The translations under genes were made by a program, and so were the position numbers. A stretch of DNA of 64,000 bases from a virus (Duplodnaviria > Heunggongvirae > Uroviricota > Caudoviricetes), in the IMG/VR virus record IMGVR_UViG_2695420859_000012; one strand, 5' to 3'. The notes below the pieces were generated by a model. It worked only from the letters and a program-made list of their open reading frames with translations. It ran no database searches and had not been told where the DNA came from. Below are positions 6,333 to 62,992 of the stretch, in pieces (the stretch's first letter is position 1; the number at the start of each line of letters is the position of its first letter).

Positions 6333-6449
6333 GTGTTTCTCCTTGTTGTGATTTGGCCGATGGCGCTATGCGCGTTGGGCTTTCGTTCATTCGTGGCTCT
6401 TTCGAGCTGTTAAATGATAGATCAGTACTTACTTATTATCTATCAAAAA

Positions 6450-7007: not shown

Positions 7008-8177
7008 TCACGTCTTAATAGTTTCTGCTACGTCGGCTAATATCGCTTCTAGTCGTTCTCCCTCTTCAGGTCTGAAGTAAAGAATGTTGGGGTTAAACCC
7101 GTAAAAGACAGTAACGTCAAGGTCTGGAAGATACTCCTTCCTGCCGACCAAATCGGATGGCTTGTTTTTGTTGTTAAACAATGAAGTTGCCCGGCTGCCA
7201 CACGTCAGCACATAGGTCGGACGCACCAGATTGATCTCTTCACGCATAAAGTCGGTGAACTGGCCGATCTCGTCTTTGGTGTAGTCTTTTTCTTTGTCTT
7301 TAACCTTCTTGCAAACACCTGTGACATAGAGATCGCCCATGCGTAAATCTCCAGCCGTCAATAGCTTGGCCTTAAAGTCGTCGTATCCGTTCTCCATAAA
7401 GTAACCGGTTCGAGCATCATTGCCGTTCGCATTGTCCAGAATGATCATGATTTTCGGCTTAATACCAATGCTGGGGCGGATTAGTTCATCACCTAAGCCC
7501 ATTTCAGCCGCCATCCGCGTCATGAGTACGTTAATTTCAGCCGAACGTTTGGGGTTCATCTCAAACGGACGTGAGGCTTTAACTGCGTCTATGACAAGGT
7601 TTCCCATCAATTCAGCCTGGTCGCGTAGGCGCTCTGGATCAGTTGCTGGCAGACTGCCTGGCTCGATGGATGCAAACGCCCCTACTTTTTGCAGCGATTC
7701 GCGCACTCGACTATTACAGGCACGTTTCTCGACAGCTTCTTCGAATTGCGCCAGTGACTCGAATTTGCCGCCAACTTTTTCTCGCGCTCTCATGATGGCT
7801 TGGCAGCCATTCTCAGAACACCCCTTCACAGCAGAGAAGGGCGCATACAGCACCTGGCTGCCATCTTCAAGCGTGCGGATCTCGATTCGGTTAGATGACA
7901 CGTTAACGTCTGGTGGCAATACGCGAATGCCATAGGTCAGCGCATCTTTAACCAGCCCCTGGTGTTTATCTTCGCCAAGAATAGTGAGAGCAGCAGCGAA
8001 AAACTCTGCGGGATAATGAGTTTTCAACCACATAGATTGATAACTGATTAAGGAGTAAGCAACAGAGTGTGATTTGTTGAAGGCATACGCGCCGGATTTC
8101 TCAAACATATTCCAGATTTCTTCGGCTCGTTCGTGCGTCAGGCCATTGCTCTCTTCGACAACACCGGTAATTTTCAT
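7008..8177 (-). CDS. dnaE: DNA polymerase III alpha (DnaE-type), C-terminal fragment
   Basis: ERAEEIWNMFEKSGAYAFNKSHSVAYSLISYQSMWLKTHYPAEFFAA matches the DnaE finger region as recalled; GAGG 7 nt before the ATG, which overlaps the HNH stop (ATGA). Confidence 0.8.
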   Translation of the reverse strand: MKITGVVEESNGLTHERAEEIWNMFEKSGAYAFNKSHSVAYSLISYQSMWLKTHYPAEFFAAALTILGEDKHQGLVKDALTYGIRVLPPDVNVSSNRIEIRTLEDGSQVLYAPFSAVKGCSENGCQAIMRAREKVGGKFESLAQFEEAVEKRACNSRVRESLQKVGAFASIEPGSLPATDPERLRDQAELMGNLVIDAVKASRPFEMNPKRSAEINVLMTRMAAEMGLGDELIRPSIGIKPKIMIILDNANGNDARTGYFMENGYDDFKAKLLTAGDLRMGDLYVTGVCKKVKDKEKDYTKDEIGQFTDFMREEINLVRPTYVLTCGSRATSLFNNKNKPSDLVGRKEYLPDLDVTVFYGFNPNILYFRPEEGERLEAILADVAETIKT

Positions 8178-8908
8178 GCAGTCACCTCATCAATCTTCAC
8201 GAACTCATACCCATTGGAGGCCAGCCAGTTCCGTTGGCGCTCCCAGCTCCATATCTCTTCACGCATTTCACTATGCAGGCGAATGTGGGCGTCTTCTGGA
8301 AGTGCTACAAGATTCCCAGGGGCGTTATCTATCGTATCGCGGTTAATATGGTGGACATGTTCATCGTCACGTAGCTCCCGACCGAGACGTTCTTTCGCTA
8401 TCAATCGATGAACGTATTCGTATTGCGAAACGCCATTGTTACCAACCAGCTGCATCATGTAGCCGTTGGTTTTTACGATGATGCCACCTTTGTAGTTGTT
8501 CGCTTCTTCTCCGATCTTTCCGCGTTTGGCAGCCGCCAGCTTTTCCTTCGTCTCCGCGCGGATTGTTCTGCCGGTTAGCTTTTTCGAAACGGTGGCCACT
8601 CGCTCATCGATATCAGCACGCAGACCGGCATTCCACGAGGTTTTCCCATACATAGGGTTGCCAGTGCCAGTCCGGGCTTCGGAGAGACGCTTCATACGTT
8701 CGTCATTATTTTTGTTTTTGCCACGATTCCAGGCTGGGGTAGCGGAGATCCGCGCGCTTCCGCGCCTGATCCCCCATTTGGCTAATAAGCGGTCAATATT
8801 TGCCTTGCTGCAACCAGCTTCGGCGGCAATGTCTTCTTTTCTCATCAGGTCAACCATGTAACGCTGACGTAACCATTCTTCTGTGATTTTGTACTTCGTA
8901 CTCGGCAT
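8174..8908 (-). CDS. HNH homing endonuclease inserted within dnaE
   Basis: HNH motif EHVHHINRDTIDNAPGNLVALPEDAH; separate frame and start. Confidence 0.8.
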   Translation of the reverse strand: MPSTKYKITEEWLRQRYMVDLMRKEDIAAEAGCSKANIDRLLAKWGIRRGSARISATPAWNRGKNKNNDERMKRLSEARTGTGNPMYGKTSWNAGLRADIDERVATVSKKLTGRTIRAETKEKLAAAKRGKIGEEANNYKGGIIVKTNGYMMQLVGNNGVSQYEYVHRLIAKERLGRELRDDEHVHHINRDTIDNAPGNLVALPEDAHIRLHSEMREEIWSWERQRNWLASNGYEFVKIDEVTA

Positions 8909-8956
8909 TTCTAAGACTCACTAAACAAATTGTTTTCTTATCTTATAAATTAATTC

Positions 8957-11320
8957 TCAAATATCGAAGCTCGTTATGTCGGCATTTATTGCCATTGCTT
9001 CGGCATAAGTGCGACGCTCACCATCAGCACAAAGTAGGCGTGCTGCTTTATGGATTTTTCTCGTAGAACCATCATCCAGTGACACTGTCACCCAGCCTTC
9101 CTCCGCTCGCTTAATGAAGTCGCCGCCAATGGATTTCATTTTCTCCATATCTTTTTTCCCGATCGCTTTCCTGACCGAGTCTGCTTCCGCCATTGAGAAC
9201 CCCGCCAAGATTCGCGTAGCAGCCATGATCTGTTCCTGATAAATCAGAACTCCGTTTGTGTCGCGAGAGATGTCGTCCAGCATTGGGTGTAAGGAATGTG
9301 GGGCCATGAAGCCTTTGGCCACGGACACATAATCGTCCAACATGCCGGATTGAATCGGGCCAGGTCGGAAGAGCGCAGTTGTAGCGACGACCGTTTTAAA
9401 GCTCATTGGCTCAATTCCACCACCTAAATCTTTAAGCAGCTTGCGCATTGGGCCTGATTCAAGCTGGAATACGCCCTGTGTATACCCTGCAGCAAAACCA
9501 TCCAGCACCTTGCGATCTTCAAGAGAAATGGCATCAAGATTGATATCTTCACCTGTGTTCTCTTTTATGTAGCGTTTTGCACTATCGAGCAAATCGAGAG
9601 TTGCCAGGCCAAGCACGTCCAGCTTAATTAGGCCCATAGCCTCGCAGTAACGCTTGTCAAATGCGATACAACGCGCGTCACCACGGCGTTCAACCGGTGT
9701 ACGTTCTGTCAGAGGAACACCTGCTACGATCATCCCTGCCGCATGTCTACCAAAGCCACGCATAAGGCTTTGTAACTTGCAGGCTGCATTGAATGCATCA
9801 GGATATTTTGTTGCGTATTTGTCGAGACTTGCCAGTTGTTCGCGCAGCTCTTCCAATGGAAGGCTATCATCCTCGACGTTCTTCAGTTCTTTTGATACCG
9901 CCATATCTGCGGACTCCACACCATAAATACGAGCGGTGTCACGTAGTGCAGAGGCTGCGCCCAGGTAGGTGAAGTTCGGAATGCCTGCAACGTAATCTTC
10001 GCCGTAGCGTTCATTCAGATACTCGATCACCTCATGGCGACGTGCCTGGCTGAAGTCCAAGTCCGCATCCGGCAAGTCGAGACGCTCAGGGTTGATGAAA
10101 CGCTCAAACAGAAGACCGTGACGGATTGGGTCGACGTTGGTTATGCCTATGCACCACGCCACCAGAGAACCGGCAGAGGAACCACGACCAGGCCCGACAG
10201 GAATGCCAGTTTCACGGCTGTGATTCATCAGATCGCGTACCATCAGGAAGTAACCACAAAATCCCAGGCGAGTAAGCGTGTCCATTTCGTACTTAAGTCG
10301 CTCAACATAAACCCTGTTCTCAGAAGCAGGTGGTGTGTATCCAAACTCTTTTGTGGTAAGACGTTTACGCAGCCCTGCAACAGCCAGTTTCATCAGCGTT
10401 GCAGGTTCGTCGTCTGCCATCTTGGGCAGTGCTGGTGGCAATTCATGCCAGCGCCATGTGCAGGCATCGATAATGGAGTCCTGCGTTGTTGAGGCCATTG
10501 CAGCTGTTACCGGCACATCCATGCGAACGGAGAAGGCTTTAAGCGCCTCAAGGAGATGGCGACGACCATTGATGGCGTTATCTCGCTGGTGGGGGATACG
10601 CAGACGATGCGGCTGGTCGATTTTTATGTTGTTCGTAACCATGTGCGCAATGTCTTTAATGTCTGCATCGTCGATCGATTCGTAATAAGCGGGATAGAAC
10701 GCTACTGGCTCTATTTTCAGTGCGCTGGCGACTTTCATCGCCCGGACGTTAATCTGGTCGTAGAATGGGGTAGGGTGCGGATAAACCACACTATAGAAGT
10801 TGTCTTTTCCACCCGCTGTAATCAGTGTGCTTATGATTTTTGCAAAATCGTTGCGTTGGAACACGCTACCGATGTCGGAAGTAAGCAGGATGATGTTGCC
10901 TTTGGCATATGTAGAAACCAACTGTTCGAGCGAGAGACGCGGTACAAAGTAGAACTGTTCTCGTGTGTTGGCCGCCGTCATTAGTTCGCAGATGTCGCGA
11001 TATCCTTTCTCATTTTTAATTAGAGCGGTAAACGAGTAGTTACGTCCTCGCTCTAATGATTCCATACATCTCATAGATTCTTTAGCAAGTTTAGCCCGGT
11101 GCTCGTATGTGGGATCATCAACAATGTTTAGTTTCACACCACAAATAACCGCCATGTCGTCACCAGCGGCACGTTGTAGTGGAATAACGCTCGCAATATT
11201 CATGCTATCTGCTGAAATTACAGCGGTGTAGCCAGCTTCTCTGGCAATCTTCACCGCGTTTTCTGCTTTTAGAGCCGACTCCCCAAGTGAGAAGTCAGTT
11301 CGAACCATCAGTGCCTTCAT
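8957..11320 (-). CDS. dnaE: DNA polymerase III alpha (DnaE-type), N-terminal part
   Basis: GYFLMVRDLMNHSRETGIPVGPGRGSSAGSLVAWCIGITNVDPIRHGLLFERFINPERLDLPDADLDF matches the DnaE catalytic core as recalled; ORF stops 44 codons after the point where similarity to uninterrupted DnaE ends. Confidence 0.85.
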   Translation of the reverse strand: MKALMVRTDFSLGESALKAENAVKIAREAGYTAVISADSMNIASVIPLQRAAGDDMAVICGVKLNIVDDPTYEHRAKLAKESMRCMESLERGRNYSFTALIKNEKGYRDICELMTAANTREQFYFVPRLSLEQLVSTYAKGNIILLTSDIGSVFQRNDFAKIISTLITAGGKDNFYSVVYPHPTPFYDQINVRAMKVASALKIEPVAFYPAYYESIDDADIKDIAHMVTNNIKIDQPHRLRIPHQRDNAINGRRHLLEALKAFSVRMDVPVTAAMASTTQDSIIDACTWRWHELPPALPKMADDEPATLMKLAVAGLRKRLTTKEFGYTPPASENRVYVERLKYEMDTLTRLGFCGYFLMVRDLMNHSRETGIPVGPGRGSSAGSLVAWCIGITNVDPIRHGLLFERFINPERLDLPDADLDFSQARRHEVIEYLNERYGEDYVAGIPNFTYLGAASALRDTARIYGVESADMAVSKELKNVEDDSLPLEELREQLASLDKYATKYPDAFNAACKLQSLMRGFGRHAAGMIVAGVPLTERTPVERRGDARCIAFDKRYCEAMGLIKLDVLGLATLDLLDSAKRYIKENTGEDINLDAISLEDRKVLDGFAAGYTQGVFQLESGPMRKLLKDLGGGIEPMSFKTVVATTALFRPGPIQSGMLDDYVSVAKGFMAPHSLHPMLDDISRDTNGVLIYQEQIMAATRILAGFSMAEADSVRKAIGKKDMEKMKSIGGDFIKRAEEGWVTVSLDDGSTRKIHKAARLLCADGERRTYAEAMAINADITSFDI

Positions 11321-14940: not shown

Positions 14941-15038
14941 GGCTAATCCTTTGTTATGAAAACAAATTATTTACTAGTGTGTTTAATGTAGCACTGCGCG
15001 AATAGGGAACTAAGCCATTCGCGCAGGGAGAAGAGGGG

Positions 15039-15251
15039 TTAACAGATTCTGACGGCTAAAGACCCGGAGCCGATATTGAGAAGCGTGAAGCGTTTGTTGT
15101 TAAGTTCGAATATAAAGCCAGTTGTGTCATTCACACCAACCTGAATCTGCTCATTCGGTAGATCGGTGAGGATGTCAGCTACACACTCATCAGCTAATTT
15201 CTGTACGTGTCCGATCTCAAGAGCGATTAGGCTGGAAATAGTGGTGTTCAT
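15039..15251 (-). CDS. Hypothetical protein
   Basis: 70-aa ORF; preceded by hairpin ctgcgcgaat...attcgcgcag at about 14984-15026. Confidence 0.3.
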   Translation of the reverse strand: MNTTISSLIALEIGHVQKLADECVADILTDLPNEQIQVGVNDTTGFIFELNNKRFTLLNIGSGSLAVRIC

Positions 15252-15457
15252 TCAATCAATCCATTCTAACTTATACTATGGTAAGGAATACTACTAAAAT
15301 TTATATCAATACTGAATACATTCATATCATATGCAAGTTAATTTTCTTACCTGTTTTGGGCTAATTTTTCTCCGTGCAATGGCCTTTAACCGGTCTTTTA
15401 AGTGCCTATCGAAAAAAATGATAATAGCTTTACAACCCTAACCTTTGATGTAATATC

Positions 15458-15471
15458 GGTAAGCACTTACC
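15458..15471. promoter_or_regulatory. Dyad GGTAAG-CA-CTTACC upstream of the XRE regulator gene
   Basis: 14-bp palindrome about 30 bp upstream of the ATG at 15503. Confidence 0.4.
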
Positions 15472-15502
15472 AGAGAGAATTGAACGCGCAAAGGTTGTAA
15501 CA

Positions 15503-15889
15503 ATGTCTGACAACAAGATTGAATTTATAGAAAGTCGCTATGCTGCTTTTATCGCAGGGCTGATTGAATCCTCACCTATGAGTCAGGCCCAAATAGCCAG
15601 ACTTATTGGTTATAAAAATGCCAACAACCTTTCTTTAATTAAAAGTGGCAAAATTCCTTTGCCTATCGATAAGGTTCGTCCGTTGGCGCTGGCGCTGGGT
15701 ATTGAGCCAAGTCGTCTTATGATGATGGTGCTGGAAGAACGCCAACCTGAACTCGCAGCATTTTTATACAAAGAAGGCACCGCTCCTCTTAACGAGGACG
15801 AAAAACAGGTTCTTGCTGCATATAACGAGCGATTCGGTAAAGAGAAAGGCGCATCACAAAAGGTTGTTGAGGCCATAAAGTCTCTATGA
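15503..15889 (+). CDS. HTH transcriptional regulator (XRE-like)
   Basis: HTH-like segment MSQAQIARLIGYKNANNLSLIKSGK; plus strand, 3' end overlaps recombinase 3' end. Confidence 0.6.
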   Translation: MSDNKIEFIESRYAAFIAGLIESSPMSQAQIARLIGYKNANNLSLIKSGKIPLPIDKVRPLALALGIEPSRLMMMVLEERQPELAAFLYKEGTAPLNEDEKQVLAAYNERFGKEKGASQKVVEAIKSL

Positions 15890-17237: not shown

Positions 17238-17774
17238 GTGAACAACCAAATTCATTGGGACTACCCATTCTCAGAAGAATTCGGCAGTGGGATGGTACAC
17301 AGACAATTCACTGTGGGAAGCACTATTTATGCCGTTGGGTTTGAACAAATATTGACGATGGATGATTTCACACGTAAGGGAGTTGATATCCTAAATGTAC
17401 ATCCAACATTCCGGTTTCCTCTGAGTGGTGTATGGGGAGTGATTTTTGACGAAATTGACCCTGTAGAAATGGATTTCAAAGGATTTCGGCATATCCAACA
17501 TCAAGGCTTGGCAGGTGGTCAAGTGCTTTTGAATGTTGCAAGTATAATCTTTGACCATTATACTGTTTGTAACGCAGGAGCTTATGTCTTCTCCGCCGCA
17601 GACGACCATCAGCATTTACGCAGAACTGACTTGGTAGACATTTACTGTAAGATACTAGGTCTAAATGGAAAACGTAAAAGTAGATTGTTCGCCAATGGTT
17701 TTCCTGGATGGGAGGCATACTGTGATGTACCAACAGGAGGAAGAGGCTATGTCGTCACGACTGAAAGTTATTAA
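17238..17774 (+). CDS. Hypothetical protein, weak GNAT-like motif
   Basis: 178 aa; QHQGLAGGQVLL loosely resembles GNAT motif A; plus strand in accessory island. Confidence 0.4.
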   Translation: MNNQIHWDYPFSEEFGSGMVHRQFTVGSTIYAVGFEQILTMDDFTRKGVDILNVHPTFRFPLSGVWGVIFDEIDPVEMDFKGFRHIQHQGLAGGQVLLNVASIIFDHYTVCNAGAYVFSAADDHQHLRRTDLVDIYCKILGLNGKRKSRLFANGFPGWEAYCDVPTGGRGYVVTTESY

Positions 17775-19914: not shown

Positions 19915-19990
19915 TTGGTGCCGGTTAACGGACTTGAACCGCTGGCCATTCGCTTACAAAGCGACTGCTCTACCAACTGAGCTAAACCGG
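19915..19990 (-). tRNA. tRNA-Thr (anticodon UGU), CCA encoded
   Basis: Own cloverleaf: acceptor GCCGGUU/AACCGGC, anticodon loop UUUGUAA, T-loop GGTTCAAGTCC; 76 nt. Confidence 0.65.
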
Positions 19991-19994
19991 CAAT

Positions 19995-20081
19995 TTGGTG
20001 GGGAGTGATGGAGTCGAACCACCCGAGTCGCCATGACAGTAGATTTACAGTCTACACCGCTACCTCTACGGACTAACTCCC
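19995..20081 (-). tRNA. tRNA-Tyr (anticodon GUA), type II, CCA encoded
   Basis: Acceptor GGGGAGU/ACUCCCC, anticodon stem GUAGA/UCUAC with loop CUGUAAA, long variable arm. Confidence 0.7.
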
Positions 20082-20086
20082 CTAAA

Positions 20087-20161
20087 TTGGCGATGGTGGG
20101 TGGATTCGAACCACCGACCAGTTGGTTAACAGCCAACTGCTCTACCGCTGAGCTACACCAT
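20087..20161 (-). tRNA. tRNA-Asn (anticodon GUU), CCA encoded
   Basis: Acceptor GAUGGUG/CACCAUC, anticodon stem GUUGG/CCAAC with loop CUGUUAA, T-loop GGTTCGAATCC. Confidence 0.75.
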
Positions 20162-20430
20162 CAATTCAGCACTGCCAGTATTTATTACTCAACAGTGCCA
20201 ATCGCGACGGTTTAGTTTCTGCCAGGAAACGCACCGCTACTTGCACTTTTCGTTAGTGCCAGACGCTTTCGACTTCGCTCAATAGTAGAAGGCAAAATCT
20301 TTAAGTAGATGATGTTTCTGAGGACAGCACCTACTTTGTAATTTATACAATGTGATGTATGGAATCATTTGTTGTGAAAACAGGCACCAATGGCAACAGT
20401 GGTTAAACCTACACAACAATCCCGTCTTCA

Positions 20431-26302: not shown

Positions 26303-27547
26303 TGCTGCTATGCCTTTTACCTTGCTTAAAAGTTCAAGCTGTCGTGAGTAAGGTTTTGCGCAATAGTAGGCTTTGATAATCTGCCCCGGGGTCGCATCGC
26401 CGGGGTCGAGTCCTTCCTCGCCCAAACATGCAATTTTCACATTAAGACCGATACTGGTCAGTCGCCTGGCTGCGGCCATAGTGTTTCGTATAGCTTGCTT
26501 TTCACTATCCCACATCATGATCACATTACGTAATCCACGCGCCTTGAGCGTCAGGAACGCGCCCAACTGATCTTCTGCATCCTGAGTGGTGTTACCAGAT
26601 AGATGCATCCCGAACGTTCCTATTGGTTCCACGTAATCGCGTAATGTTTCTTCGTCAAAAATAGCTCGTTTGACCCCCATAACATCGAACGCCCCCTCAC
26701 AGACAACTACAGTCTGTTTGCCGACTGCATTGTGGCCGTTGTAGAGAAACTTACCTGAAGCTGGAAGCTGCATAGGAAAGAGGTAGCGGCGTTCTGCTGT
26801 ACCGGTAATGTCTCGTCCTTGAAATGTCTTCATTACCCCATCCAGATCGTAAACCGGTATCAGTATTCGCATATCGAAAATCTGTCCTTTAACCTGATCT
26901 GTATACGGATCTACATAAGCGTGCTTGCCTTCGACGCAGTATCGTAGGTCAAAATACTTTGCCATTTCAGGCGATATATTTCGTTCAACCAGATAGTCTG
27001 GAAGATGGCCATCTATAGGAAGATCGTAATGACGAGGGAGTGCAACTGGTCCCTCTAACTCGACTGTGCTTGCAAGCACTATCTCTTCTTTCTTTGGTGC
27101 CCACCCCTGGGAAAGAAGAGCGTTCTGCACATATTCCTCGAACTGTCGTCGTGATTTACCGCTGTAGTGCTTGAGGAAGACCAGCTTATTGAACTGAATC
27201 TCTTCGGGATGATCACCAGCGAAGCATTTACCGACGCCACTGGTCAGATTGAAATATACCTTCCAGTTGGAGCTGCCGCATACCGGACACTCCTTGATAT
27301 TCACTTCACGACCGCGAGTACTCACGCCTCCACGTCGATAAACGATACCTTCAGTATCCAACCATTGTTCAAAATCTAATTCGGTAATTAGCTCTTTCAG
27401 CTCGCTCACGATAATTCCACTTTTAACAGGCAATATTGTGACCAACCTAAATGTTGATATAACATAAAGGCTCATGTGTTTTTCTTTTGTGGTTTGGCAA
27501 AAGAAAAGTTGTTTCACCAATGAATCAAGCGTGGAGGTGTTCTCCAC
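26294..27547 (-). CDS. DNA primase (zinc finger + TOPRIM)
   Basis: CPVCGSSNWK...CFAGDHPE; TOPRIM-like VVVCEGAFDVMGV with downstream acidic residues; follows helicase gene. Confidence 0.7.
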   Translation of the reverse strand: MENTSTLDSLVKQLFFCQTTKEKHMSLYVISTFRLVTILPVKSGIIVSELKELITELDFEQWLDTEGIVYRRGGVSTRGREVNIKECPVCGSSNWKVYFNLTSGVGKCFAGDHPEEIQFNKLVFLKHYSGKSRRQFEEYVQNALLSQGWAPKKEEIVLASTVELEGPVALPRHYDLPIDGHLPDYLVERNISPEMAKYFDLRYCVEGKHAYVDPYTDQVKGQIFDMRILIPVYDLDGVMKTFQGRDITGTAERRYLFPMQLPASGKFLYNGHNAVGKQTVVVCEGAFDVMGVKRAIFDEETLRDYVEPIGTFGMHLSGNTTQDAEDQLGAFLTLKARGLRNVIMMWDSEKQAIRNTMAAARRLTSIGLNVKIACLGEEGLDPGDATPGQIIKAYYCAKPYSRQLELLSKVKGIAALV

Positions 27548-27556
27548 GCTTATTTT

Positions 27557-28897
27557 TTAGGTAACGTCTAAGATTCGCTCAATGAAGCGCATTTGTTCGA
27601 GGTTTTGTTTAACGCGAATGCTGATCCCTCCCTGCTGGTTACGCGAACCAGCAAAGTAGAGACGAGCCTCTCCTTTCGCTTCTTCTTCTTCGGTTTTGTT
27701 GATCGTTATTACCAGGTCAGCAATACGTACTTTTTCGATGTTGTCGGCAGCGTGCATCATTGTGGCAACTTCTGACGCGCCACCTTCACGGTTTGTTTGC
27801 GACGCCGTGATACCAGCAACGTTATGCTTGTCATAAAGAGCACGTAAATCGGTGTAGATACTACGAATGTTGGCGCGATCATCACGAAGGTCATAACTGG
27901 CACGCATCAAATCTGCGTAGTCGACAACAACCATGTCAGGCACCATGCCATTGGCTTTCATACTGTTAAGCATACGGTCCAGATCTGCCGGTGACATACT
28001 TCCTGACGGACGCTCAACAACCCACAAACTACCAATCCCCTTCGTGGCTCCCAACTCTGCCAACTTGCGATGAACTTCATCGCGCCGTTCCACCAGCTTG
28101 GACATTTCCGTCTCCGACAATCTTGCATCAAAACGGTCGGACAAAATGGTGGTGTGAACCTCCAGCGAGAGATACAGAACATTGTAGCCAGCAAGCGTAG
28201 CGTTTATGGAAAACTCACCCATTGCGGTCGATTTACCGGATTTAGCAAAACCCATGAAGAGCACCATTTCGCGCTTTGCCCAGCCTTTTTGGTACAGCAA
28301 TCTATCAAGCAGAGGGAGTCCAGTTGTAATGCTGTTTGGCACATACTCCTCTGAAGCCTCATATTCACGCGCTTTCAATCGCTCACTTGCGGAGGTGTAG
28401 TAGTCATAGATTCCGGTCGCTTCGTTCGAGCCTATCTGCTGAACCTTGGCCATGATTGCCATCGCCCCCTGAAAGTCGCCCTTCTCTTTCAGTTCAGCAG
28501 CTTTAATCAGAGCATCATCAAACGCTACACTTTTTGCGAATGTGGATACCTGGTCAACCATGTACGAGGTATCAGACAATTTTTCTGCAAGGATGCGCTT
28601 AAACGCAGCAACAACATCCGGGAAGAGTTCCTCACGGATGGTCTTATCGCGTTTCGCACGCTTAAGCATATCCAGAATCGCAGATGAAGAAGGCGCGCTC
28701 TTGTACATACGGTAATAGCCCGAAACCATATTAACCAATATGGCATTGGCCGCATTGGCAAATTGGCTAGGCACAACCAGATCTCCCGCACGAGTAAGAA
28801 ACTCGTGATCACGACAAAAATATGCCGTCAGTCTGTTCTGGAAATCTTCATCAAACTCTTCGGACAGCCCGCGTCCTGTATGGCAAAGTTCGGTCAT
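27557..28897 (-). CDS. Replicative DNA helicase, DnaB-like
   Basis: Walker A FMGFAKSGKST; ADLVITINK strand. Confidence 0.75.
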   Translation of the reverse strand: MTELCHTGRGLSEEFDEDFQNRLTAYFCRDHEFLTRAGDLVVPSQFANAANAILVNMVSGYYRMYKSAPSSSAILDMLKRAKRDKTIREELFPDVVAAFKRILAEKLSDTSYMVDQVSTFAKSVAFDDALIKAAELKEKGDFQGAMAIMAKVQQIGSNEATGIYDYYTSASERLKAREYEASEEYVPNSITTGLPLLDRLLYQKGWAKREMVLFMGFAKSGKSTAMGEFSINATLAGYNVLYLSLEVHTTILSDRFDARLSETEMSKLVERRDEVHRKLAELGATKGIGSLWVVERPSGSMSPADLDRMLNSMKANGMVPDMVVVDYADLMRASYDLRDDRANIRSIYTDLRALYDKHNVAGITASQTNREGGASEVATMMHAADNIEKVRIADLVITINKTEEEEAKGEARLYFAGSRNQQGGISIRVKQNLEQMRFIERILDVT

Positions 28898-28940
28898 GTG
28901 CTTTCCTTTGTTTTTTAAACAAATTGTTTTCTAGTATTAG

Positions 28941-29681
28941 TTAATTAGATAGGGGATCAATAAACCGCCGTGCTTCTTCCAGTTCTTCTGGAAAGTGGGC
29001 GGAAATAAGGCGCTCTGGAACGATTTCCATTAGCCAGATAGCGGAGAAAATTGCGCGTATGCGCTTGCTGCGGGGGATGGTGCGTAAACGCTCCAGAATC
29101 CACTCAAAATAGCTTTCCTGGATCGGGTTGAACTGCATGTCTCCCATATGCTTAAAGCTAACTAGAGAGTCATCCAGACGGGTTGTTGCGCGTCTGGCTA
29201 ATTTCTCTTCGAATATCTCAACCAGCTCTGGCTGCCATAAATGCTGTGGGCGCGGCAGCTTGTCCCACAGCCGTCGTGCAGCTGCGGAAAGAACGGTGGA
29301 GATAAAGTAGTCGTATGAGCAGCAATAGCGGTCAGCAAACTGGCGTGCTTTCCATAGAGACGTTTTATTGGCAGTCGACAACTCCTGATAAGGCAGGCGT
29401 TTTAACCCGGTGGTGAACGGAGCTGTTTCAAAGTGTTCGCGACCGTGCGTCAGCATGATATTTGAGTACTGACGTTTGTATGCCTCCGTAAAAAGACAGG
29501 TGGCCATGAGAGGATGCATGTCGCGGTAATCAAACCACTTCGTCTCGAAGAGTTCAGCCTCGTCTTTACAGCGCGACAAACCAATGTTTTCAGCGACCCA
29601 CTTGTCCATAACAGCGGTATTCCACTCTGTCATGAAGTCGTACTGGTCGTTGTCGATGGTATCGAAAAAGATTTGGCTCAT
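28941..29681 (-). CDS. Hypothetical protein, first gene of helicase/primase operon
   Basis: Start moved to ATG at 29679-29681 (AGGTGAG RBS; track ORF starts at GTG 29690); no recognisable motifs. Confidence 0.4.
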   Translation of the reverse strand: MSQIFFDTIDNDQYDFMTEWNTAVMDKWVAENIGLSRCKDEAELFETKWFDYRDMHPLMATCLFTEAYKRQYSNIMLTHGREHFETAPFTTGLKRLPYQELSTANKTSLWKARQFADRYCCSYDYFISTVLSAAARRLWDKLPRPQHLWQPELVEIFEEKLARRATTRLDDSLVSFKHMGDMQFNPIQESYFEWILERLRTIPRSKRIRAIFSAIWLMEIVPERLISAHFPEELEEARRFIDPLSN

Positions 29682-29797
29682 GTGGCTCACCTGGTAGGTA
29701 GTTACTTACTTATCACAATGAGCGGATGATAGCGACTGGTGGCAGTTTTTGGAAGTGGAAACGGAAGGGAGTTGTTCTGGTGGTGTCTTTTAAAAGA

Positions 29798-29852
29798 CCT
29801 GCTTCCGTATATATTTAATAAGTTACTTATTATTTATATATACAGAAGCAGG
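29798..29852. repeat. 55-bp palindromic element, copy 1
   Basis: cctgcttccgtatatatttaataagttacttattatttatatatacagaagcagg; identical to 62647-62701. Confidence 0.9.
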
Positions 29853-29963
29853 CATAACTTGTCGTCTTAGACGCCCAGAAGCTCTACACTTTGAGCCTGT
29901 TAAATTGATTAAAAACTTATGTGTAAAATAGAACGCATTAGTCAGTAGCAAAGAGATGCAATA

Positions 29964-30731
29964 ATGGACGATTTATCGGTATACGCGAGATCATTGGATA
30001 AGGCTAAATACTATGTTTACTGTCTCTATGATACAGAAGACAAGATGAAAAGACCGTTTTACATAGGAAAAGGCAAATCGACTCGTTGTCTCGATCACAT
30101 CAAGTATCCCGATGACTCTCCCAAATCCATGCGGATCAAAGAACTTTTGGCTAATAAAAAATTAGGCATAGATATACTTCGTCATGGTATGGATGAAACC
30201 ACAGCCAAACTTGTTGAGGCGACATGCATCGACCTTATGGGGGTCGGAGAGCTTACGAATAAGGTACGAGGAAGTGGTTCCATGATGGGCAGAATATCAC
30301 TGGACGCCTACCATCACTTAGTGCTGCAAGAGGAAACTGAAATTGCTCCTGAGCACGCCGGTCTTGCCTTCCTGCTAAACAGCACCTACAAGTCAGGAAT
30401 GTCCGCTCTGGCATTATATGAGGCTACGCGTGGCGTATGGGCAAAGGTTCCAAGAGACGAGAATCTCAAATATGCCTACGCTACATATGGTGGGCTGATA
30501 ATGGAAGTTTATCAGATTGAATGCTGGGTCAAAGCCGGTTCTCAGCAGTACTTTACAAGGGATATAGCTCTTGGCCCCGACACAAAACGTTATGAATTTG
30601 TTGGCAGAATAGCCGATGAGCATATTAGAAAACTGTATGTAGGCAAATTAATCAAGAAGCCACCAAGCTACGGTAGCCCTTTTGTGAAGGTTGGGGTGGT
30701 TAGGACTGAACATAGTGTTAGCGCGGCATAA
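29964..30731 (+). CDS. GIY-YIG nuclease-domain protein (possible free-standing homing endonuclease or cargo nuclease)
   Basis: N-terminal YYVYCLYD...PFYIGKGKSTR; about 150-aa unknown C-terminal region. Confidence 0.6.
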   Translation: MDDLSVYARSLDKAKYYVYCLYDTEDKMKRPFYIGKGKSTRCLDHIKYPDDSPKSMRIKELLANKKLGIDILRHGMDETTAKLVEATCIDLMGVGELTNKVRGSGSMMGRISLDAYHHLVLQEETEIAPEHAGLAFLLNSTYKSGMSALALYEATRGVWAKVPRDENLKYAYATYGGLIMEVYQIECWVKAGSQQYFTRDIALGPDTKRYEFVGRIADEHIRKLYVGKLIKKPPSYGSPFVKVGVVRTEHSVSAA

Positions 30732-30749
30732 AGCTGACACTGTAGTTAT

Positions 30750-30786
30750 GCATTGGCGCAATGTACGCGCCAATGCATGATTTTTA
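30750..30786. terminator. Bidirectional intrinsic terminator between GIY-YIG gene and parG-like gene
   Basis: gcattggcgc-aatgtac-gcgccaatgc followed by atgattttta. Confidence 0.7.
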
Positions 30787-31143
30787 ACCTTTCTTCATCA
30801 ACTCTCGTTTGATTTCATCGGTACGCATCGTGACATCGGCAGCGGTGATCGCCTCATTCAATTTCACGATGTCCTCGATTTCCTGCGGTGACTTCTCTGC
30901 CAGATGGAAAATGGCTGCTCGAATCACGTCAGAACGAGTGAACTTCTCGAAGCGAGGGATGAACTTCATCATCTCCAGCAGTTCGAAGTATTCGTCCTCC
31001 AGTGACATTGTGCGGCTTTTAATTTTCTCTTTGCCACGAGTCGGGCGTCCCTGTGGTCTGACTGGTTGGCGCAAAGGAGTTGTGTTCTTAGCCGGTGCAT
31101 CAGGCTCTTTGCGCTTTGCTAGGTCACCCATTTTCATGGACAT
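30784..31143 (-). CDS. Small partition-operon partner protein (ParG/ParB-like)
   Basis: Immediately downstream of parA (ATGA overlap); basic N-terminal tail. Confidence 0.5.
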   Translation of the reverse strand: MSMKMGDLAKRKEPDAPAKNTTPLRQPVRPQGRPTRGKEKIKSRTMSLEDEYFELLEMMKFIPRFEKFTRSDVIRAAIFHLAEKSPQEIEDIVKLNEAITAADVTMRTDEIKRELMKKG

Positions 31144-31811
31144 TATTCTTCTTCCTCCAGACTCAACAGATAATCTACAAATTCTTCAAACTCGGCTTCC
31201 GCCTTTTTGTCGCGCTCGCTACCGGTCATTTCAAAGATAGAACGACCAGACTCTTCCGCATCATCATAGACGTTGCGGTTATATAGATTGACTGGCGCAG
31301 ACTCGATGCCAAACGTCTCAACAATCTCTTTAGCCGCCAGAATGCGAGACACTTGTGATGGCAAAGCCGGGCACTGGTTCATGACCGCGCGGACCTTCAC
31401 TTTATCGTTTACATTACGAACATTGTCGATAATAGGATCGATGTCACGCAGAGATTTCAAATCACGACGCTTAGGACGAAGCGGGATAATGATAACGTCG
31501 GCCATCAGCATCGCTTGTCGCTGAATTTCGGAGTCAAAGCCACCAGCATCTACCACTACATACTCAGCTCTACCCTGAAGCGATTTTAGGTGCTTAATGA
31601 TGTCATCCTGAACGTATGCAAAAGGAATCAGCTCAAGGTCTTCGTTCTGTCGACGGTCTTCACACCAGCTCGTTGTCGTGCGCTGAATATCTATATCGGT
31701 GATATAAACCTTCTTCTTCTTTTTGACTTTCAGGCAAACGGCAATTTGCTGGGCAACGGTGGATTTGCCAGGCCCGCCCTTTGTGCCGCCAACCACAAAG
31801 ATCTTGGTCAT
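31143..31811 (-). CDS. parA: ParA/ParF-family partition ATPase
   Basis: Deviant Walker A GGTKGGPGKST; 222 aa. Confidence 0.85.
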   Translation of the reverse strand: MTKIFVVGGTKGGPGKSTVAQQIAVCLKVKKKKKVYITDIDIQRTTTSWCEDRRQNEDLELIPFAYVQDDIIKHLKSLQGRAEYVVVDAGGFDSEIQRQAMLMADVIIIPLRPKRRDLKSLRDIDPIIDNVRNVNDKVKVRAVMNQCPALPSQVSRILAAKEIVETFGIESAPVNLYNRNVYDDAEESGRSIFEMTGSERDKKAEAEFEEFVDYLLSLEEEE

Positions 31812-31959
31812 TGGAGAGTTCCCTTTGCGTATATAATTATCGTCTGAAACAACTTGTTTTCTTATATGTGATATAGCCTAAATGCCTACGGCTGTGGTGT
31901 AAAGGTTAAATGGTAGGTGCTGCCTTAGAATTTTTAGGCGAGAATCAATGGCTGTTAAC

Positions 31960-31990
31960 AAAAAAGGCGACCAAAGTCGCCTTATTTTTA
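31960..31990. terminator. Intrinsic terminator
   Basis: aaggcgac-caaa-gtcgcctt followed by atttttaa. Confidence 0.65.
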
Positions 31991-32740
31991 ATCTTTTAGG
32001 TATAAACCTACTGGAGTTCTTGTTTTGCGGGAGATGATAAGTACGATAAATTTCTGAACGTTAACTTGCACTTTGTTTGGGAGCCAAGAGCTTAACTCTG
32101 CATCAAGCAACAATCCTCTGTTCCACGGCAAAAATCCGGTTTCTTTCCCCATCCCGTACTCGCCTAACACATCCTCGAACGTTTCTGTTTTGGCATTGTA
32201 TATACGCACATCGCCGGTTCGCATGAGAGGCCCTGCCCAGATCTTAGCACCAGGAATGGTTTGTGTATCGTCGCAGACTAAATGCTCATACCAATGAAGA
32301 AGAAAGAGATAGGTACGGTGACACAATCCTCGCTGACGACGCTCTCTGACAGTTTCGACACCGGCTACCTGGTAACATTCGATCTCATTACCGTCTTCAA
32401 CAAAACTATATTCACGCAGAGCTATCCTACCAGCGATCGTATTTTTGTTTTCGTCCAGAAGCCCGGACTGGAGCACCTCTTTGATAATCTCTTCTTCAGG
32501 GGCATCTTCATCCGCTCGATCTAAGATGAATTCGCTCAGGTCGCCTTGGTCGCGCGCACCTACAAGTTCCATAGAGACATACAGGCAAATGTCATCTTCT
32601 GGTTCAATGATTTCAATTTCTGAGATTTTATAGAGGGAGGCTTCATTGATAAGAAAGCCAAAACGAACAACACGAGTCTCCCCTTTATGAGGAAACTCGC
32701 TTAGATCTTTTGAATATGCGCTATCTAGTGTAGGAGCCAT
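31988..32740 (-). CDS. Hypothetical protein
   Basis: 250 aa, overlaps upstream ORF. Confidence 0.4.
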   Translation of the reverse strand: MAPTLDSAYSKDLSEFPHKGETRVVRFGFLINEASLYKISEIEIIEPEDDICLYVSMELVGARDQGDLSEFILDRADEDAPEEEIIKEVLQSGLLDENKNTIAGRIALREYSFVEDGNEIECYQVAGVETVRERRQRGLCHRTYLFLLHWYEHLVCDDTQTIPGAKIWAGPLMRTGDVRIYNAKTETFEDVLGEYGMGKETGFLPWNRGLLLDAELSSWLPNKVQVNVQKFIVLIISRKTRTPVGLYLKD

Positions 32741-33108
32741 TTTGTAGCAGAATCATCAGCCTTAACCGTGCTGACAATGCTACCATGATTGCGTAAGAAG
32801 CGGCGAATAGAATGTTCAATAACCTCCGAAAAAGCCTCGATAAAACGAGACAGCTCAGGGTACTGTTTAGCTGGCTTGACTACAAAACGAACACGACCAT
32901 TCAGGTAAATTGCTTCAGCTAATGGCTTCACGCTTGCACCAGCGCGCTCAACATCGTCTTTGAAGGTAACGATGAAGCGTGAGTCTTCCGGTTCAATAGC
33001 GTCATTATTGAGCTTACGTACTTCAAGCTTGTGCTGATTCAGCACATGAGTCTCGATAATACTCGTGCAATCGCGAATAGTTTGTATAGAACGTTTCTCG
33101 TTCAGCAT
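32725..33108 (-). CDS. Hypothetical protein
   Basis: 127-aa ORF. Confidence 0.4.
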   Translation of the reverse strand: MLNEKRSIQTIRDCTSIIETHVLNQHKLEVRKLNNDAIEPEDSRFIVTFKDDVERAGASVKPLAEAIYLNGRVRFVVKPAKQYPELSRFIEAFSEVIEHSIRRFLRNHGSIVSTVKADDSATKWLLH

Positions 33109-47067: not shown

Positions 47068-47149
47068 TGTTTCATCCTTGAAATAAGTAGGCGCTAACAT
47101 CCTGTCAGCGCCACAATGATAGTAAATTAGTACTTACTTATCCAGATAC

Positions 47150-62529: not shown

Positions 62530-62646
62530 AGATCCCTCTAAAACACACAGAGCGCGTCCATGCGCTCTAAAACAACTTGTTTACTGCATTTTCTAACCAA
62601 CTTGTTTTCTGGGTTGTTTAATTAGGTCTGGGCATGTCTTATTAAG

Positions 62647-62701
62647 CCTGCTTCCGTATATATTTAATAAGTTACTTATTATTTATATATACAGAAGCAG
62701 G
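62647..62701. repeat. 55-bp palindromic element, copy 2
   Basis: Identical to 29798-29852; between terS start and the 88-aa gene. Confidence 0.9.
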
Positions 62702-62725: not shown

Positions 62726-62992
62726 TTACATCACCAGTAACTTCGCTTTGGCTCGACCTAAAGTGGTTAACCCAAGAGTTCGGCGGTGATAGCGATTGTC
62801 ACTGCGTTGGCGCGTATGCCCTTTCTCCACAAGCCCCTTTTTTATCAGAGCGCGAATTGAGAACTGGATACTTTGCTTGGTTGTCTTGTACGGCAAAACT
62901 TCAAGCAATTCGTCCAGATCAAGTAGATAACCTCGCTCATAACCGAGATTGAGCGTTTTGATGATGTCCTTTTGTTTATCGGTTAACGTCAT
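62726..62992 (-). CDS. Small basic protein, possible DNA-binding regulator
   Basis: 88 aa, Lys/Arg-rich C-terminus. Confidence 0.4.
   Translation of the reverse strand: MTLTDKQKDIIKTLNLGYERGYLLDLDELLEVLPYKTTKQSIQFSIRALIKKGLVEKGHTRQRSDNRYHRRTLGLTTLGRAKAKLLVM

What the first reader, a model, noticed from the sequence alone, without database searches (positions are those of the whole stretch)
8923..8935. Recurring perfect dyad AAACAA-N-TTGTTT(TCT) upstream of several operons
Perfect copies of the 13-bp palindrome at 8923-8935 (before the HNH gene inside dnaE), 28917-28929 (before the helicase gene), 31847-31859 (before parA) and 62570-62582 (before terS), plus a one-mismatch copy at 62595-62607. 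In the sense orientation each follows a TATAAG/TACTAG -10-like hexamer, the classic position for a repressor operator. This suggests one regulator coordinating replication, partition and packaging operons.
Basis: seen in the sequence. Interest (0 to 1): 0.6.

Follow-up and report, generated by a model that had tools for sequence, protein, structure and literature searches.

The report
Dispersed repressor operator of SSU5-like phage-plasmids
A 13-base palindrome (AAACAA-N-TTGTTT) recurs just upstream of about twenty genes in a widespread family of plasmid-like phages (SSU5, pHCM2 and relatives; six copies in this window) and looks like the binding site of one element-encoded repressor that keeps replication, partition, packaging and early genes quiet while the phage lives as a plasmid.

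Summary
The window has 4 perfect and 2 one-mismatch copies of AAACAANTTGTTT (0.01 and 0.5 expected). All six are intergenic and read AG(A/T)-AAACAA-N-TTGTTT on the gene-sense (minus) strand, 14-65 nt before the start codons of the HNH, cobT-like, dnaB, parA and terS genes.

The window is an E. coli SSU5-like phage-plasmid. Whole genomes of relatives (E. coli, Salmonella SSU5, Cyrano, Klebsiella) each carry 18-20 copies. AGAAAACAA is their most over-represented shared 9-mer. At orthologous promoters the motif stays invariant while the flanks diverge.

Predicted sigma-70 -10 hexamers end 2-15 nt upstream, so the dyad covers the start site or about +7 to +21. Some promoters have a second copy 51 bp upstream over the -35 region. 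terS has a 25-bp tandem pair followed by a terminator-like hairpin. In published RNA-seq of a Cyrano lysogen, genes behind the dyad sit at background; parA is the main exception.

Best reading: a dispersed operator for an element-encoded repressor. The binder is inferred, not shown. The ParG-like partner of ParA is the best candidate; the XRE-like and 88-aa proteins are disfavoured. I found no published description. The kind is known (P1 C1 operators, L5 stoperators, pSM19035 omega); this member appears new.

The parts
8923..8938 (-). Operator copy before the HNH endonuclease gene that splits dnaE. Sense strand reads AGAAAACAATTTGTTT; it ends 14 nt before the ATG at 8908.
   Evidence: A predicted -10 (TAAGAT, 8940-8945) lies 4 nt upstream; this is a prediction only.
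14960..14975 (-). Sense strand reads AGTAAATAATTTGTTT; it ends 19 nt before the ATG at 14940.
   Evidence: The orthologous site is a perfect dyad in SSU5, pMT1 and a Klebsiella relative. Predicted -10 is TACATT at 14985-14990.
28917..28932 (-). Operator copy before the DnaB-like helicase/primase operon. Sense strand reads AGAAAACAATTTGTTT; it ends 19 nt before the ATG at 28897.
   Evidence: The dyad is conserved in 6 genomes with DnaB at 64-100% aa identity, and a -10-like hexamer lies 3-5 nt upstream in each lineage. Here -35 is TTGATC (28955-28960) and -10 is AATACT/TAATAC (28933-28939).
31847..31862 (-). Operator copy before the parA / ParG-like operon. Sense strand reads AGAAAACAAGTTGTTT; it ends 35 nt before the ATG at 31811.
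   Evidence: The block cATAAGAAAACAnnTTGTTT is invariant in 11 lineages with ParA at 67-100% aa identity. Predicted -35 is TTTACA (31898-31903) and -10 is TAGGCT (31875-31880), which places the dyad at about +9 to +21.
62595..62610 (-). Upstream copy of the terS tandem pair (one mismatch). Sense strand reads AGAAAACAAGTTGGTT.
   Evidence: The same 25-bp tandem is present in SSU5, Cyrano and pMT1.
62570..62585 (-). Downstream, perfect copy of the terS tandem pair. Sense strand reads AGTAAACAAGTTGTTT; it ends 40 nt before the ATG at 62529.
   Evidence: No sigma-70-like promoter is found nearby.
62548..62569 (-). GC-rich hairpin followed by a T-run (terminator-like), placed directly between the tandem operators and the terS ribosome-binding site.
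   Evidence: The stem is conserved in SSU5 and pMT1 while the loop changes.
30784..31143 (-). Gene for the 119-aa ParG-like protein, second gene of the par operon. It is the best candidate for the dyad-binding protein (inferred, not shown).
   Evidence: Across the dyad-bearing family it keeps an invariant MGDLAK N-terminus, the basic arm RPQGRPTRGK, IKSRTMS(L/I/M)EDE and FTRSDVIRAAI. Its own promoter carries the dyad. It is expressed about 9x above background in a Cyrano lysogen. The ribbon-helix-helix fold is not confirmed.
31143..31811 (-). Gene for a small Walker-type ParA ATPase, first gene of the dyad-controlled par operon.
   Evidence: Pfam AAA_31/MipZ/CbiA/ParA hits.
62726..62992 (-). 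Gene for the 88-aa winged-helix protein immediately upstream of the terS control region. It is the rival candidate binder or a late regulator.
   Evidence: AlphaFold model with pLDDT 84 and a MarR/PadR-like winged helix fold. The family is restricted to SSU5-like elements. It is at background level in the lysogen.

Best explanation
AG(A/T)-AAACAA-N-TTGTTT is a dispersed DNA operator of SSU5-like phage-plasmids. About twenty small transcription units each carry one copy. These units include the HNH, cobT-like, dnaB-primase, parA and terS units in this window, and nrdB and many small early genes elsewhere.

The copy overlaps the predicted transcription start or the first ~20 transcribed bases. 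A few units have a second copy over the -35 region (51 bp away) or a tandem copy (25 bp away).

Inferred mechanism: in the plasmid-prophage state a small dimeric, or dimer-of-dimers, protein encoded by the element occupies these sites. It blocks RNA polymerase binding or promoter escape and also blocks read-through from upstream units. One protein would therefore silence replication, nucleotide-metabolism, early and packaging genes together.

The most likely binder is the ParG-like partner of ParA (window 30784-31143). It would autoregulate its own operon at a partly repressed level.

Shown here: the recurrence of the motif, its position, its conservation, and the silence of downstream genes in a lysogen. 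Inferred: protein binding, the identity of the binder, and the exact start sites.
For: - Far above chance: 4 perfect and 6 near-perfect copies in the window against 0.01 and 0.5 expected. There are 18-20 copies per genome in five relatives. AGAAAACAA is the top shared 9-mer, at 18/15/16 copies against about 0.8 expected.
- Position: 6 of 6 copies in the window are intergenic, as are 14/18, 16/20 and 12/19 in three relatives that are ~90% ORF-covered. In the window all six lie on the sense strand 14-65 nt before a start codon; the sites in the relatives are mostly placed the same way.
- Phylogenetic footprint: the motif is invariant at the parA, dnaB, cobT and terS promoters while the flanks diverge. 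This holds down to 64-67% protein identity of the downstream gene.
- Palindromic with an unconstrained centre base, as expected for a symmetric DNA-binding dimer. Some copies lie after terminators and over -35 regions, so they are not in the downstream mRNA.
- The distance from the best -10 hexamer to the dyad varies: 2-8 nt in 16 of 39 sites and 11-15 nt in 20 of 39. It always falls inside the polymerase footprint. That fits a repressor better than an activator, which needs fixed geometry.
- Promoters with extended -10 boxes (TGnGATAAT) plus the dyad drive genes that are at background in the Cyrano lysogen. The 12 genes directly behind a dyad have median expression 7.6, against a background of about 10. 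The exceptions are parA at 50 and dnaB at 21 (data from PMC9928086).
- For ParG-like as binder: its own promoter carries the dyad in 11 lineages. Its putative DNA-reading segments are invariant wherever the dyad is present and altered in six distant lineages where the perfect dyad is absent. It is expressed in the lysogen.
Against: - No binding data and no mapped transcription starts exist. The -10/-35 assignments are my own scoring, and the stricter consensus scan found no sigma-70 promoter next to any of the five window sites.
- Almost all sense-strand genes are silent in the lysogen, so silence is not specific to dyad-bearing genes.
- The flank is asymmetric: AGA on one side only. The left half, ATAAGAAAACAA, survives without the right half in distant lineages. 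A simple symmetric dimer does not explain this.
- The ParG-like ribbon-helix-helix fold is unconfirmed: no Pfam or PDB match, hhalign probabilities below 1%, and a monomer model with pLDDT 63.
- Its correlation with the dyad is confounded by overall divergence.
- Y. pestis pMT1 keeps six dyads after losing the ParA and ParG-like genes, although that loss is recent.
- A single dyad at parA is unlike the repeat arrays of known type Ib centromeres.
Confidence: 0.6

Rival explanations
1. The dyad is the target of the 88-aa winged-helix protein encoded just upstream of terS. This protein would be a lytic-phase regulator. It could switch off early and middle units late in infection, help late transcription through the terS leader, or both. 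On this reading the dyad is not a lysogenic operator.
For: The protein is a confident MarR/PadR-like winged helix. It is restricted to SSU5-like elements and is 77-88% conserved, with an invariant recognition helix, in dyad-bearing genomes. Its gene abuts the tandem dyads. The terS leader lacks a sigma-70 promoter and carries a terminator-like hairpin, as activator- or antiterminator-dependent late operons do. pMT1 keeps both this gene and the dyads.
Against: It is at background expression in the lysogen, where dyad promoters with good extended -10 boxes are silent. Its recognition helix is unchanged in Moellerella, whose genome has no promoter-associated dyads. Sites at or downstream of the start point are not activator positions. 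Its own operon promoter has no dyad.
Confidence: 0.13
2. A conserved host (Enterobacteriaceae) transcription factor or nucleoid protein binds the dyad, and the phage-plasmid has evolved sites to plug into a host signal.
For: The motif is identical in elements from Escherichia, Salmonella, Klebsiella, Enterobacter, Citrobacter and Yersinia although most element proteins diverge. It is lost in elements of Morganellaceae hosts, which would fit a change of host factor.
Against: From my own knowledge, I know of no E. coli regulator with this consensus. KdgR-type boxes differ by 2 bp in arm spacing. Multi-copy use of the motif in viral contigs is confined to SSU5-like sequences; other hits look like chance. 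I could not scan host chromosomes.
Confidence: 0.09
3. The element acts in the mRNA leader. AGAAAACAAnUUGUUU, lying just 5' of the ribosome-binding site, would be a translational or stability operator. A possible binder is the element's FljA homologue, which has a weak Hfq-like match.
For: In the window all six copies lie 14-65 nt before a start codon, and at most promoters they would be transcribed. The conserved flank is strand-specific (AGA on the sense strand). The element encodes a FljA-family protein (PF03614, E = 1.5e-84) with a weak Hfq-like hit. From my own knowledge, FljA represses fliC post-transcriptionally; PMC2652032 agrees.
Against: The E. coli fliC leader has no such motif. Upstream copies sit after terminators and over -35 regions, outside the regulated mRNA. 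Both arms are equally conserved around a free centre base, which is a double-stranded-DNA signature. As RNA the 6-bp arms cannot close a 1-nt loop. FljA-like is only 41% conserved in the Klebsiella relative, where the motif is identical.
Confidence: 0.06
4. No dedicated binder exists. The motif is part of a duplicated promoter/leader cassette, or an intrinsic promoter-proximal element (start-site or initial-transcribed sequence) shared by descent.
For: Class A promoters share about 60 nt of architecture: -35, TGnGATAAT, 13 nt, then the dyad. The left half alone persists at some promoters in distant lineages.
Against: The flanks, the -10 positions and the downstream genes are unrelated at many sites while the 13-mer is kept. 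A palindrome is not needed for a start-site element. Recurrent pair spacings of 25 and 51 bp suggest cooperative occupancy.
Confidence: 0.05

Closest known systems
Phage P1 C1 repressor with its many operators dispersed over the plasmid prophage (my own knowledge)
   Same: Both are plasmid prophages. One motif is scattered over about 100 kb at roughly 20 promoters, controlling replication functions (ban in P1, dnaB here), methylases, early genes and entry into late expression.
   Different: P1 operators are asymmetric 17-mers (ATTGCTCTAATAAATTT); here the site is a 13-bp palindrome. No C1 homologue was identified. The local XRE-type repressor appears to use other sites.
Mycobacteriophage L5 gp71 'stoperators' (Brown et al. 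1997, my own knowledge)
   Same: Both have about 20-30 short sites in short intergenic gaps with a consistent orientation relative to transcription. In L5 they silence the prophage by blocking polymerase. Here copies also sit between units after terminators, for example nrdA-nrdB and the terS leader.
   Different: L5 sites are asymmetric and act on elongation. Here the core is symmetric and nearly every copy is paired with its own predicted promoter. A roadblock function is only inferred.
Omega (ribbon-helix-helix) of pSM19035, and ParG of TP228: type Ib partition adaptors that are also transcriptional repressors (my own knowledge)
   Same: A small ParA sits beside a small DNA-binding partner whose site overlaps the par promoter. 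Omega also represses copy-number and stability operons, so one protein couples partition with global control. That is the reading proposed here for the ParG-like protein.
   Different: Omega and ParG bind arrays of 7-bp or 4-bp repeats at 1-3 loci. Here single 13-bp palindromes sit at about 20 loci. The ribbon-helix-helix fold of the SSU5-family protein is not confirmed.
CopG of pMV158, bound as a tetramer to a 13-bp pseudosymmetric element (my own knowledge)
   Same: The target size and symmetry match (13 bp within a roughly 19-bp footprint), and the site overlaps a promoter.
   Different: CopG has a single site that regulates plasmid copy number. No homology was detectable (probability 0.4%).
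lac O1 / gal-type operators centred just downstream of the transcription start (my own knowledge)
   Same: The operator centre lies near +11 to +15 at the class A and parA promoters. An auxiliary operator about 5 helical turns away (51 bp) would allow cooperative binding or looping.
   Different: The protein family is different, and there are many promoters rather than one operon.

Membership tests
Classical repressor operator at a sigma-70 promoter | Short dyad-symmetric site recurring more often than chance | tested here: met
Classical repressor operator at a sigma-70 promoter | Site lies within the RNA polymerase footprint (about -50 to +20) of a promoter | tested here: inconclusive
   My scoring puts a -10-like hexamer 2-15 nt upstream in 36 of 39 sites, and extended -10 boxes are obvious at class A promoters. 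The stricter scan found no promoter at the window sites. No start-site data were available.
Classical repressor operator at a sigma-70 promoter | Downstream genes are repressed when the regulator is present | tested here: inconclusive
   Genes behind dyads are at background in the Cyrano lysogen, but so are most lytic genes. No derepression experiment is available.
Classical repressor operator at a sigma-70 promoter | Sequence-specific binding by a protein | not testable with these tools
   Needs EMSA, footprinting or ChIP.
P1 C1 operator regulon | Match to the asymmetric C1 operator consensus, and presence of a C1 homologue | tested here: not met
   The motif is a palindrome unrelated to ATTGCTCTAATAAATTT. 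No candidate scanned gave a C1-like family hit; other genes were not scanned.
L5-type stoperators | Asymmetric sites oriented with transcription inside transcription units, blocking elongation | tested here: inconclusive
   Orientation bias is present through the AGA flank (13/18, 13/20 and 8/19 sites). However the core is symmetric and the sites coincide with predicted promoters. An elongation block cannot be tested here.
Type Ib partition centromere/operator (ParG or omega type) | Small Walker ParA with a small downstream DNA-binding adaptor | tested here: met
   ParA/MipZ Pfam hits. The 119-aa partner has a ParB-like N-terminal peptide and a basic arm; the reading of that peptide rests on my own knowledge.
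Type Ib partition centromere/operator (ParG or omega type) | Adaptor has a ribbon-helix-helix fold | tested here: inconclusive
   No Pfam or PDB hit. hhalign against ParG, omega and CopG gives probabilities below 1%. The monomer model has pLDDT 63. A remote homologue gives a sub-threshold RHH_1 hit, E = 0.11.
Type Ib partition centromere/operator (ParG or omega type) | Array of repeats next to the par operon serving as centromere | tested here: not met
   There is only one dyad at parA and no repeat array in 29650-32050. The copies are dispersed instead.
FljA-type 5'-leader translational operator | Motif shared with the known FljA target, the fliC leader | tested here: not met
   The E. coli fliC leader lacks the motif.
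Known RNA families (Rfam) | Covariance-model match at or near the sites | tested here: not met
   The only window hits are three tRNAs at 19919-20162.

The most novel reading that the evidence does not exclude
The partition adaptor (the ParG-like partner of ParA) doubles as the genome-wide silencer of the lytic programme. The ~20 dispersed operators double as its centromere-like loading sites. Plasmid segregation, copy-number sensing and prophage silencing would then be run by one autoregulated protein, and titration of that protein by runaway replication would be part of the lytic switch.
Probability: 0.3. Interest if true: 0.75.

Novelty: new member of a known kind. Interest (0 to 1): 0.5.

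Why it matters
SSU5-like phage-plasmids are very common in clinical Enterobacteriaceae. About 800 of the 72,556 plasmid records searched matched this family, among them Y. pestis pMT1 and LF82's Cyrano. From my own knowledge, S. Typhi pHCM2 belongs to the family too. Published work reports that phage-plasmids carry resistance genes (abstract of PMC9600943).

I found nothing published on how their lytic genes are controlled. A single conserved operator at about 20 promoters gives a concrete, testable handle on that regulation: one oligonucleotide for pull-downs, EMSA or DAP-seq, and one motif for annotating their transcription units.

If the binder is the partition adaptor, it would be an unusual coupling of segregation and prophage silencing.

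Tried and rejected
- FljA link. The element's FljA homologue suggested an RNA operator. I fetched the E. coli fliC leader and it lacks the motif, so I dropped this.
- XRE-like repressor as binder. It is absent from SSU5. Its own switch region has other repeats (GGTAAGCACTTACC in E. coli, TTACTTAC in Klebsiella) and no dyad.
- 92-aa RHH-like protein of the DEAD-helicase operon. It is expressed in the lysogen, but its putative DNA-reading strand varies between genomes that share an identical dyad.
- Simple sigma-70 and terminator scans at the five window sites gave no promoter. I replaced them with my own weighted scoring, which is only a prediction.
- Remote homology of ParG-like to ParG, omega or CopG was not detectable. 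An exhaustive HMMER search found only syntenic SSU5-like relatives, so no test outside the family was possible.
- pMT1 as a natural ParG-like knockout. It keeps six dyads, but its divergence is too recent to be informative.
Non-SSU5 hits are AT-rich or coding chance matches.
- Rfam found no RNA family and no group I intron around the HNH insertion.
- The most relevant-looking preprint (10.64898/2026.08.19.745698) could not be opened.
- Literature searches on SSU5 or pHCM2 combined with operator, palindrome, promoter or binding-site terms found no description of the motif.

Full report
**1. Observation**

AAACAANTTGTTT occurs perfectly at 8923, 28917, 31847 and 62570. That is 4 copies against 0.01 expected, and no shuffle reaches 4. 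A weight-matrix scan finds no further copies in the window and scores every copy higher on the minus strand.

Almost all genes here are on the minus strand. Read in that sense, the six sites are AG(A/T)-AAACAA-N-TTGTTT. They end 14, 19, 19, 35, 40 and 65 nt before the start codons of five genes:
- an HNH_3/NUMOD3 endonuclease gene that splits dnaE
- a cobT-like gene
- the dnaB-like helicase gene
- a small parA
- the gene preceding terL, which has two copies

All six sites are intergenic in a window that is 91% ORF-covered.

**2. What the window is**

The window is an E. coli SSU5-like phage-plasmid. Positions 27000-33000 are 100% identical to pM160133_p3 (NZ_CP022167) and about 82% identical to Salmonella phage SSU5. 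More than 700 plasmid records match.

I used complete relatives as proxies for the rest of the genome. Copies with at most one mismatch:

| Genome | Copies |
|---|---|
| E. coli record NZ_CP022167 | 18 |
| Salmonella phage SSU5 | 20 |
| Phage Cyrano | 18 |
| Distant Klebsiella quasipneumoniae element (parA DNA only 69% identical) | 19 |
| Degenerate Y. pestis pMT1 | 6 |

An unbiased k-mer census shows that AGAAAACAA is the most over-represented 9-mer shared by three of these genomes: 18, 15 and 16 copies against about 0.8 expected. In viral contigs, multi-copy use of the motif is confined to SSU5-like sequences.

**3. Conservation**

At orthologous promoters the motif is kept while the flanks diverge.
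- parA: in 11 lineages with ParA at 67-100% amino-acid identity, the only invariant block is cATAAGAAAACAnnTTGTTT.
- dnaB: the dyad persists in 6 genomes down to 64% DnaB identity.
- cobT and terS sites behave the same way in the genomes that have them.

This is a phylogenetic footprint, not a repeat inherited by recent duplication.

**4. Anatomy**

Many copies outside the window belong to a stereotyped promoter: a -35 element (TTGxxx or TTTxxx), 16 nt, an extended -10 box (TGnGATAAT or TGGTATTAT), 13 nt, then the dyad. That places the dyad at about +7 to +19.

With a simple weighted score, the best -10 hexamer ends 11-15 nt upstream of the dyad in 20 of 39 sites and 2-8 nt upstream in 16 of 39.
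- dnaB: five lineages place a -10-like hexamer 3-5 nt upstream, so the dyad spans the start site.
- parA: TTTACA-17-TAGGCT lies 15 nt upstream.

AGA is conserved regardless of where the -10 box lies.

The stricter consensus scan found no promoter next to the window sites, and no start-site data exist. The promoter positions are predictions.

Operator pairs recur at two spacings:
- 51 bp: the upstream copy lies over the -35 region, and the AGA/TCT extensions face inward.
- 25 bp: the terS pair in four genomes, plus another gene in Klebsiella.

At terS the pair is followed directly by a GC hairpin with a T-run and then the ribosome-binding site. No sigma-70-like promoter is detectable there.

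**5. DNA or RNA?**

The evidence points to double-stranded DNA bound by a symmetric protein:
- Both arms are equally conserved around a free centre base.
- Some copies sit after terminators and over -35 regions.
- A 1-nt loop is impossible in RNA.

The element does encode a FljA homologue with a weak Hfq-like match, which made an mRNA-leader operator worth checking. The E. coli fliC leader has no such motif.

**6. State in the lysogen**

Published RNA-seq of the Cyrano lysogen (PMC9928086, supplementary table) has a background of about 10 normalised counts. The 12 genes directly behind a dyad have a median of 7.6.

| Gene behind a dyad | Normalised counts |
|---|---|
| terS | 7 |
| cobT-like | 8 |
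| DUF1380 (behind a two-dyad promoter with TGAGATAAT) | 7.5 |
| nrdB | 13 |
| dnaB | 21 |
| CYRAN_111 (operator has a mismatch) | 25 |
| parA | 50 |

Good-looking promoters that are silent imply active repression. The caveat is that almost all lytic genes are silent in this state.

**7. Who binds?**

The candidates were judged on three things: conservation across genomes with an identical dyad, expression in the lysogen, and their own regulatory regions.

| Candidate | For | Against |
|---|---|---|
| XRE-like repressor (15503-15889) | Expressed in the lysogen (96) | Absent from SSU5; its switch region has other repeats and no dyad |
| 92-aa RHH-like protein | Expressed in the lysogen (114) | Putative DNA-reading strand varies between genomes with the same dyad |
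| 88-aa protein (62726-62992) | Confident MarR/PadR-like winged helix; restricted to this family | At background in the lysogen; keeps its recognition helix in a Moellerella relative whose whole genome lacks promoter-associated dyads |
| ParG-like protein (30784-31143) | See below | See below |

The ParG-like protein is the second gene of the par operon and is expressed about 9x above background. Its own promoter carries the dyad in every dyad-bearing lineage. Its N-terminal peptide (MGDLAK), basic arm (RPQGRPTRGK), IKSRTMS(L/I/M)EDE and FTRSDVIRAAI are invariant across members that are otherwise only 49% identical.

Remote homologues found by exhaustive search all sit in syntenic, more distant SSU5-like elements from Moellerella, Providencia, Xenorhabdus and a Raoultella-type lineage. 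In those elements these segments are altered and the perfect dyad is gone. Only the left half, ATAAGAAAACAA, survives at parA and a few other promoters.

This covariation favours ParG-like but is confounded by overall divergence. Its ribbon-helix-helix fold could not be confirmed. I put ParG-like at about 0.35-0.4, the 88-aa protein at about 0.13, a host factor at about 0.09, and another or unrecognised element protein at the remainder.

**8. Comparison with known systems**

These comparisons rest on my own knowledge of the systems named.
- It works like the dispersed operator sets of P1 C1 and the L5 gp71 stoperators.
- If ParG-like is the binder, it also works like omega of pSM19035, a partition adaptor that is a global repressor.
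- It is not a member of the C1 operator family: the sequence and symmetry differ.
- It lacks the repeat array of type Ib centromeres.

Literature searches found no description of this motif or of lytic-gene regulation in SSU5-like elements. One possibly relevant 2026 preprint could not be read.

**9. Verdict**

The feature is real, highly non-random and conserved across the family. It is best explained as the operator of a single element-encoded repressor controlling about 20 transcription units.

The hexamer detail and the suggested binders do not. The regulon is much larger than the window shows. The kind is known and this member appears undescribed. The binder and the mechanism of derepression remain to be shown.

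Noticed in passing
window 29798-29852 and 62647-62701: Two identical copies of a 55-bp near-perfect palindrome, CCTGCTTCTGTATATATAAATAATAAGTAACTTATTAAATATATACGGAAGCAGG. One lies between the 88-aa gene and the terS operators; the other lies upstream of the 249-aa gene that precedes dnaB. The E. coli relative and SSU5 each have 3 copies, and the ends of the SSU5 GenBank record fall inside one copy. A Klebsiella relative has none. It could be a packaging or replication site, a centromere, or a bidirectional terminator.
   Followed up: partly
window 15252-15502: The divergent switch region between a 70-aa gene (15039-15251, minus strand) and the XRE-like repressor (15503-15889, plus strand) has its own perfect palindrome, GGTAAGCACTTACC (15458-15471), and further GTAAG/CTTAC repeats. 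These are probably the immunity operators and are distinct from the AAACAA dyad.
   Followed up: partly
window 7008-11320: dnaE is split into a 787-aa N-terminal ORF (8957-11320) and a 389-aa C-terminal ORF (7008-8177) by a free-standing HNH_3+NUMOD3 homing-endonuclease-like gene (8174-8908) that has its own dyad. dnaE is intact in SSU5. No group I intron was detected. In the Klebsiella relative a gene preceded by a tandem dyad pair starts inside an unannotated 3.8-kb stretch at the syntenic position; I did not check what that gene or stretch encodes.
   Followed up: partly
window 14994-15026: A hairpin sits just upstream of the cobT promoter, where a -35 box would lie. Its stem changes by compensatory substitutions between E. 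coli (CTGCGCGAAT/ATTCGCGCAG) and SSU5 (CTGTACGAACAG/CTGTTCGTACAG).
   Followed up: no
window, many gene starts (e.g. 28897, and in relatives nrdB, cobT): A shared translation-initiation context, AAGGAAA(A/G)CACATG, is present. AAACACATG is the next most over-represented non-overlapping 9-mer, after the operator half-site, in three genomes at 10/10/14 copies.
   Followed up: no
window 6427-6435, 29704-29712, 47132-47140 (sense strand): A third recurrent motif, (GA)TAAGTAAGTA(A/C)T, lies upstream of several genes, with 6-13 copies per genome in relatives. It may mark another promoter class or another regulator's site.
   Followed up: no
outside the window: NZ_CP022167 78138-79436 (locus L002 28138-29436): An operon divergent from the ParB-like genes encodes a DEAD-box helicase, a 92-aa RHH-like protein that is expressed in lysogens, a lipoprotein and a full-length FljA homologue (phase-1 flagellin repressor, PF03614, E = 1.5e-84). 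This suggests the phage-plasmid may repress host flagellin.
   Followed up: partly
window 17238-17774 (+): By position (divergent from the integrase gene), this ORF corresponds to CYRAN_43, which is transcribed about 700-fold above background in a Cyrano lysogen. It is by far the highest signal on the element. It may be a highly expressed moron or a non-coding RNA.
   Followed up: no
window 19919-20162 (-): Three adjacent tRNA genes. The Cyrano equivalents are expressed in the lysogen and inflate the value of the overlapping ORF CYRAN_40.
   Followed up: no
window 62527-62612 (sense strand RNA): If transcribed, the two tandem terS dyads can pair with each other, forming a long hairpin that abuts the terminator-like hairpin. 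The fold is not significantly more stable than shuffles (z = -1.7).
   Followed up: partly
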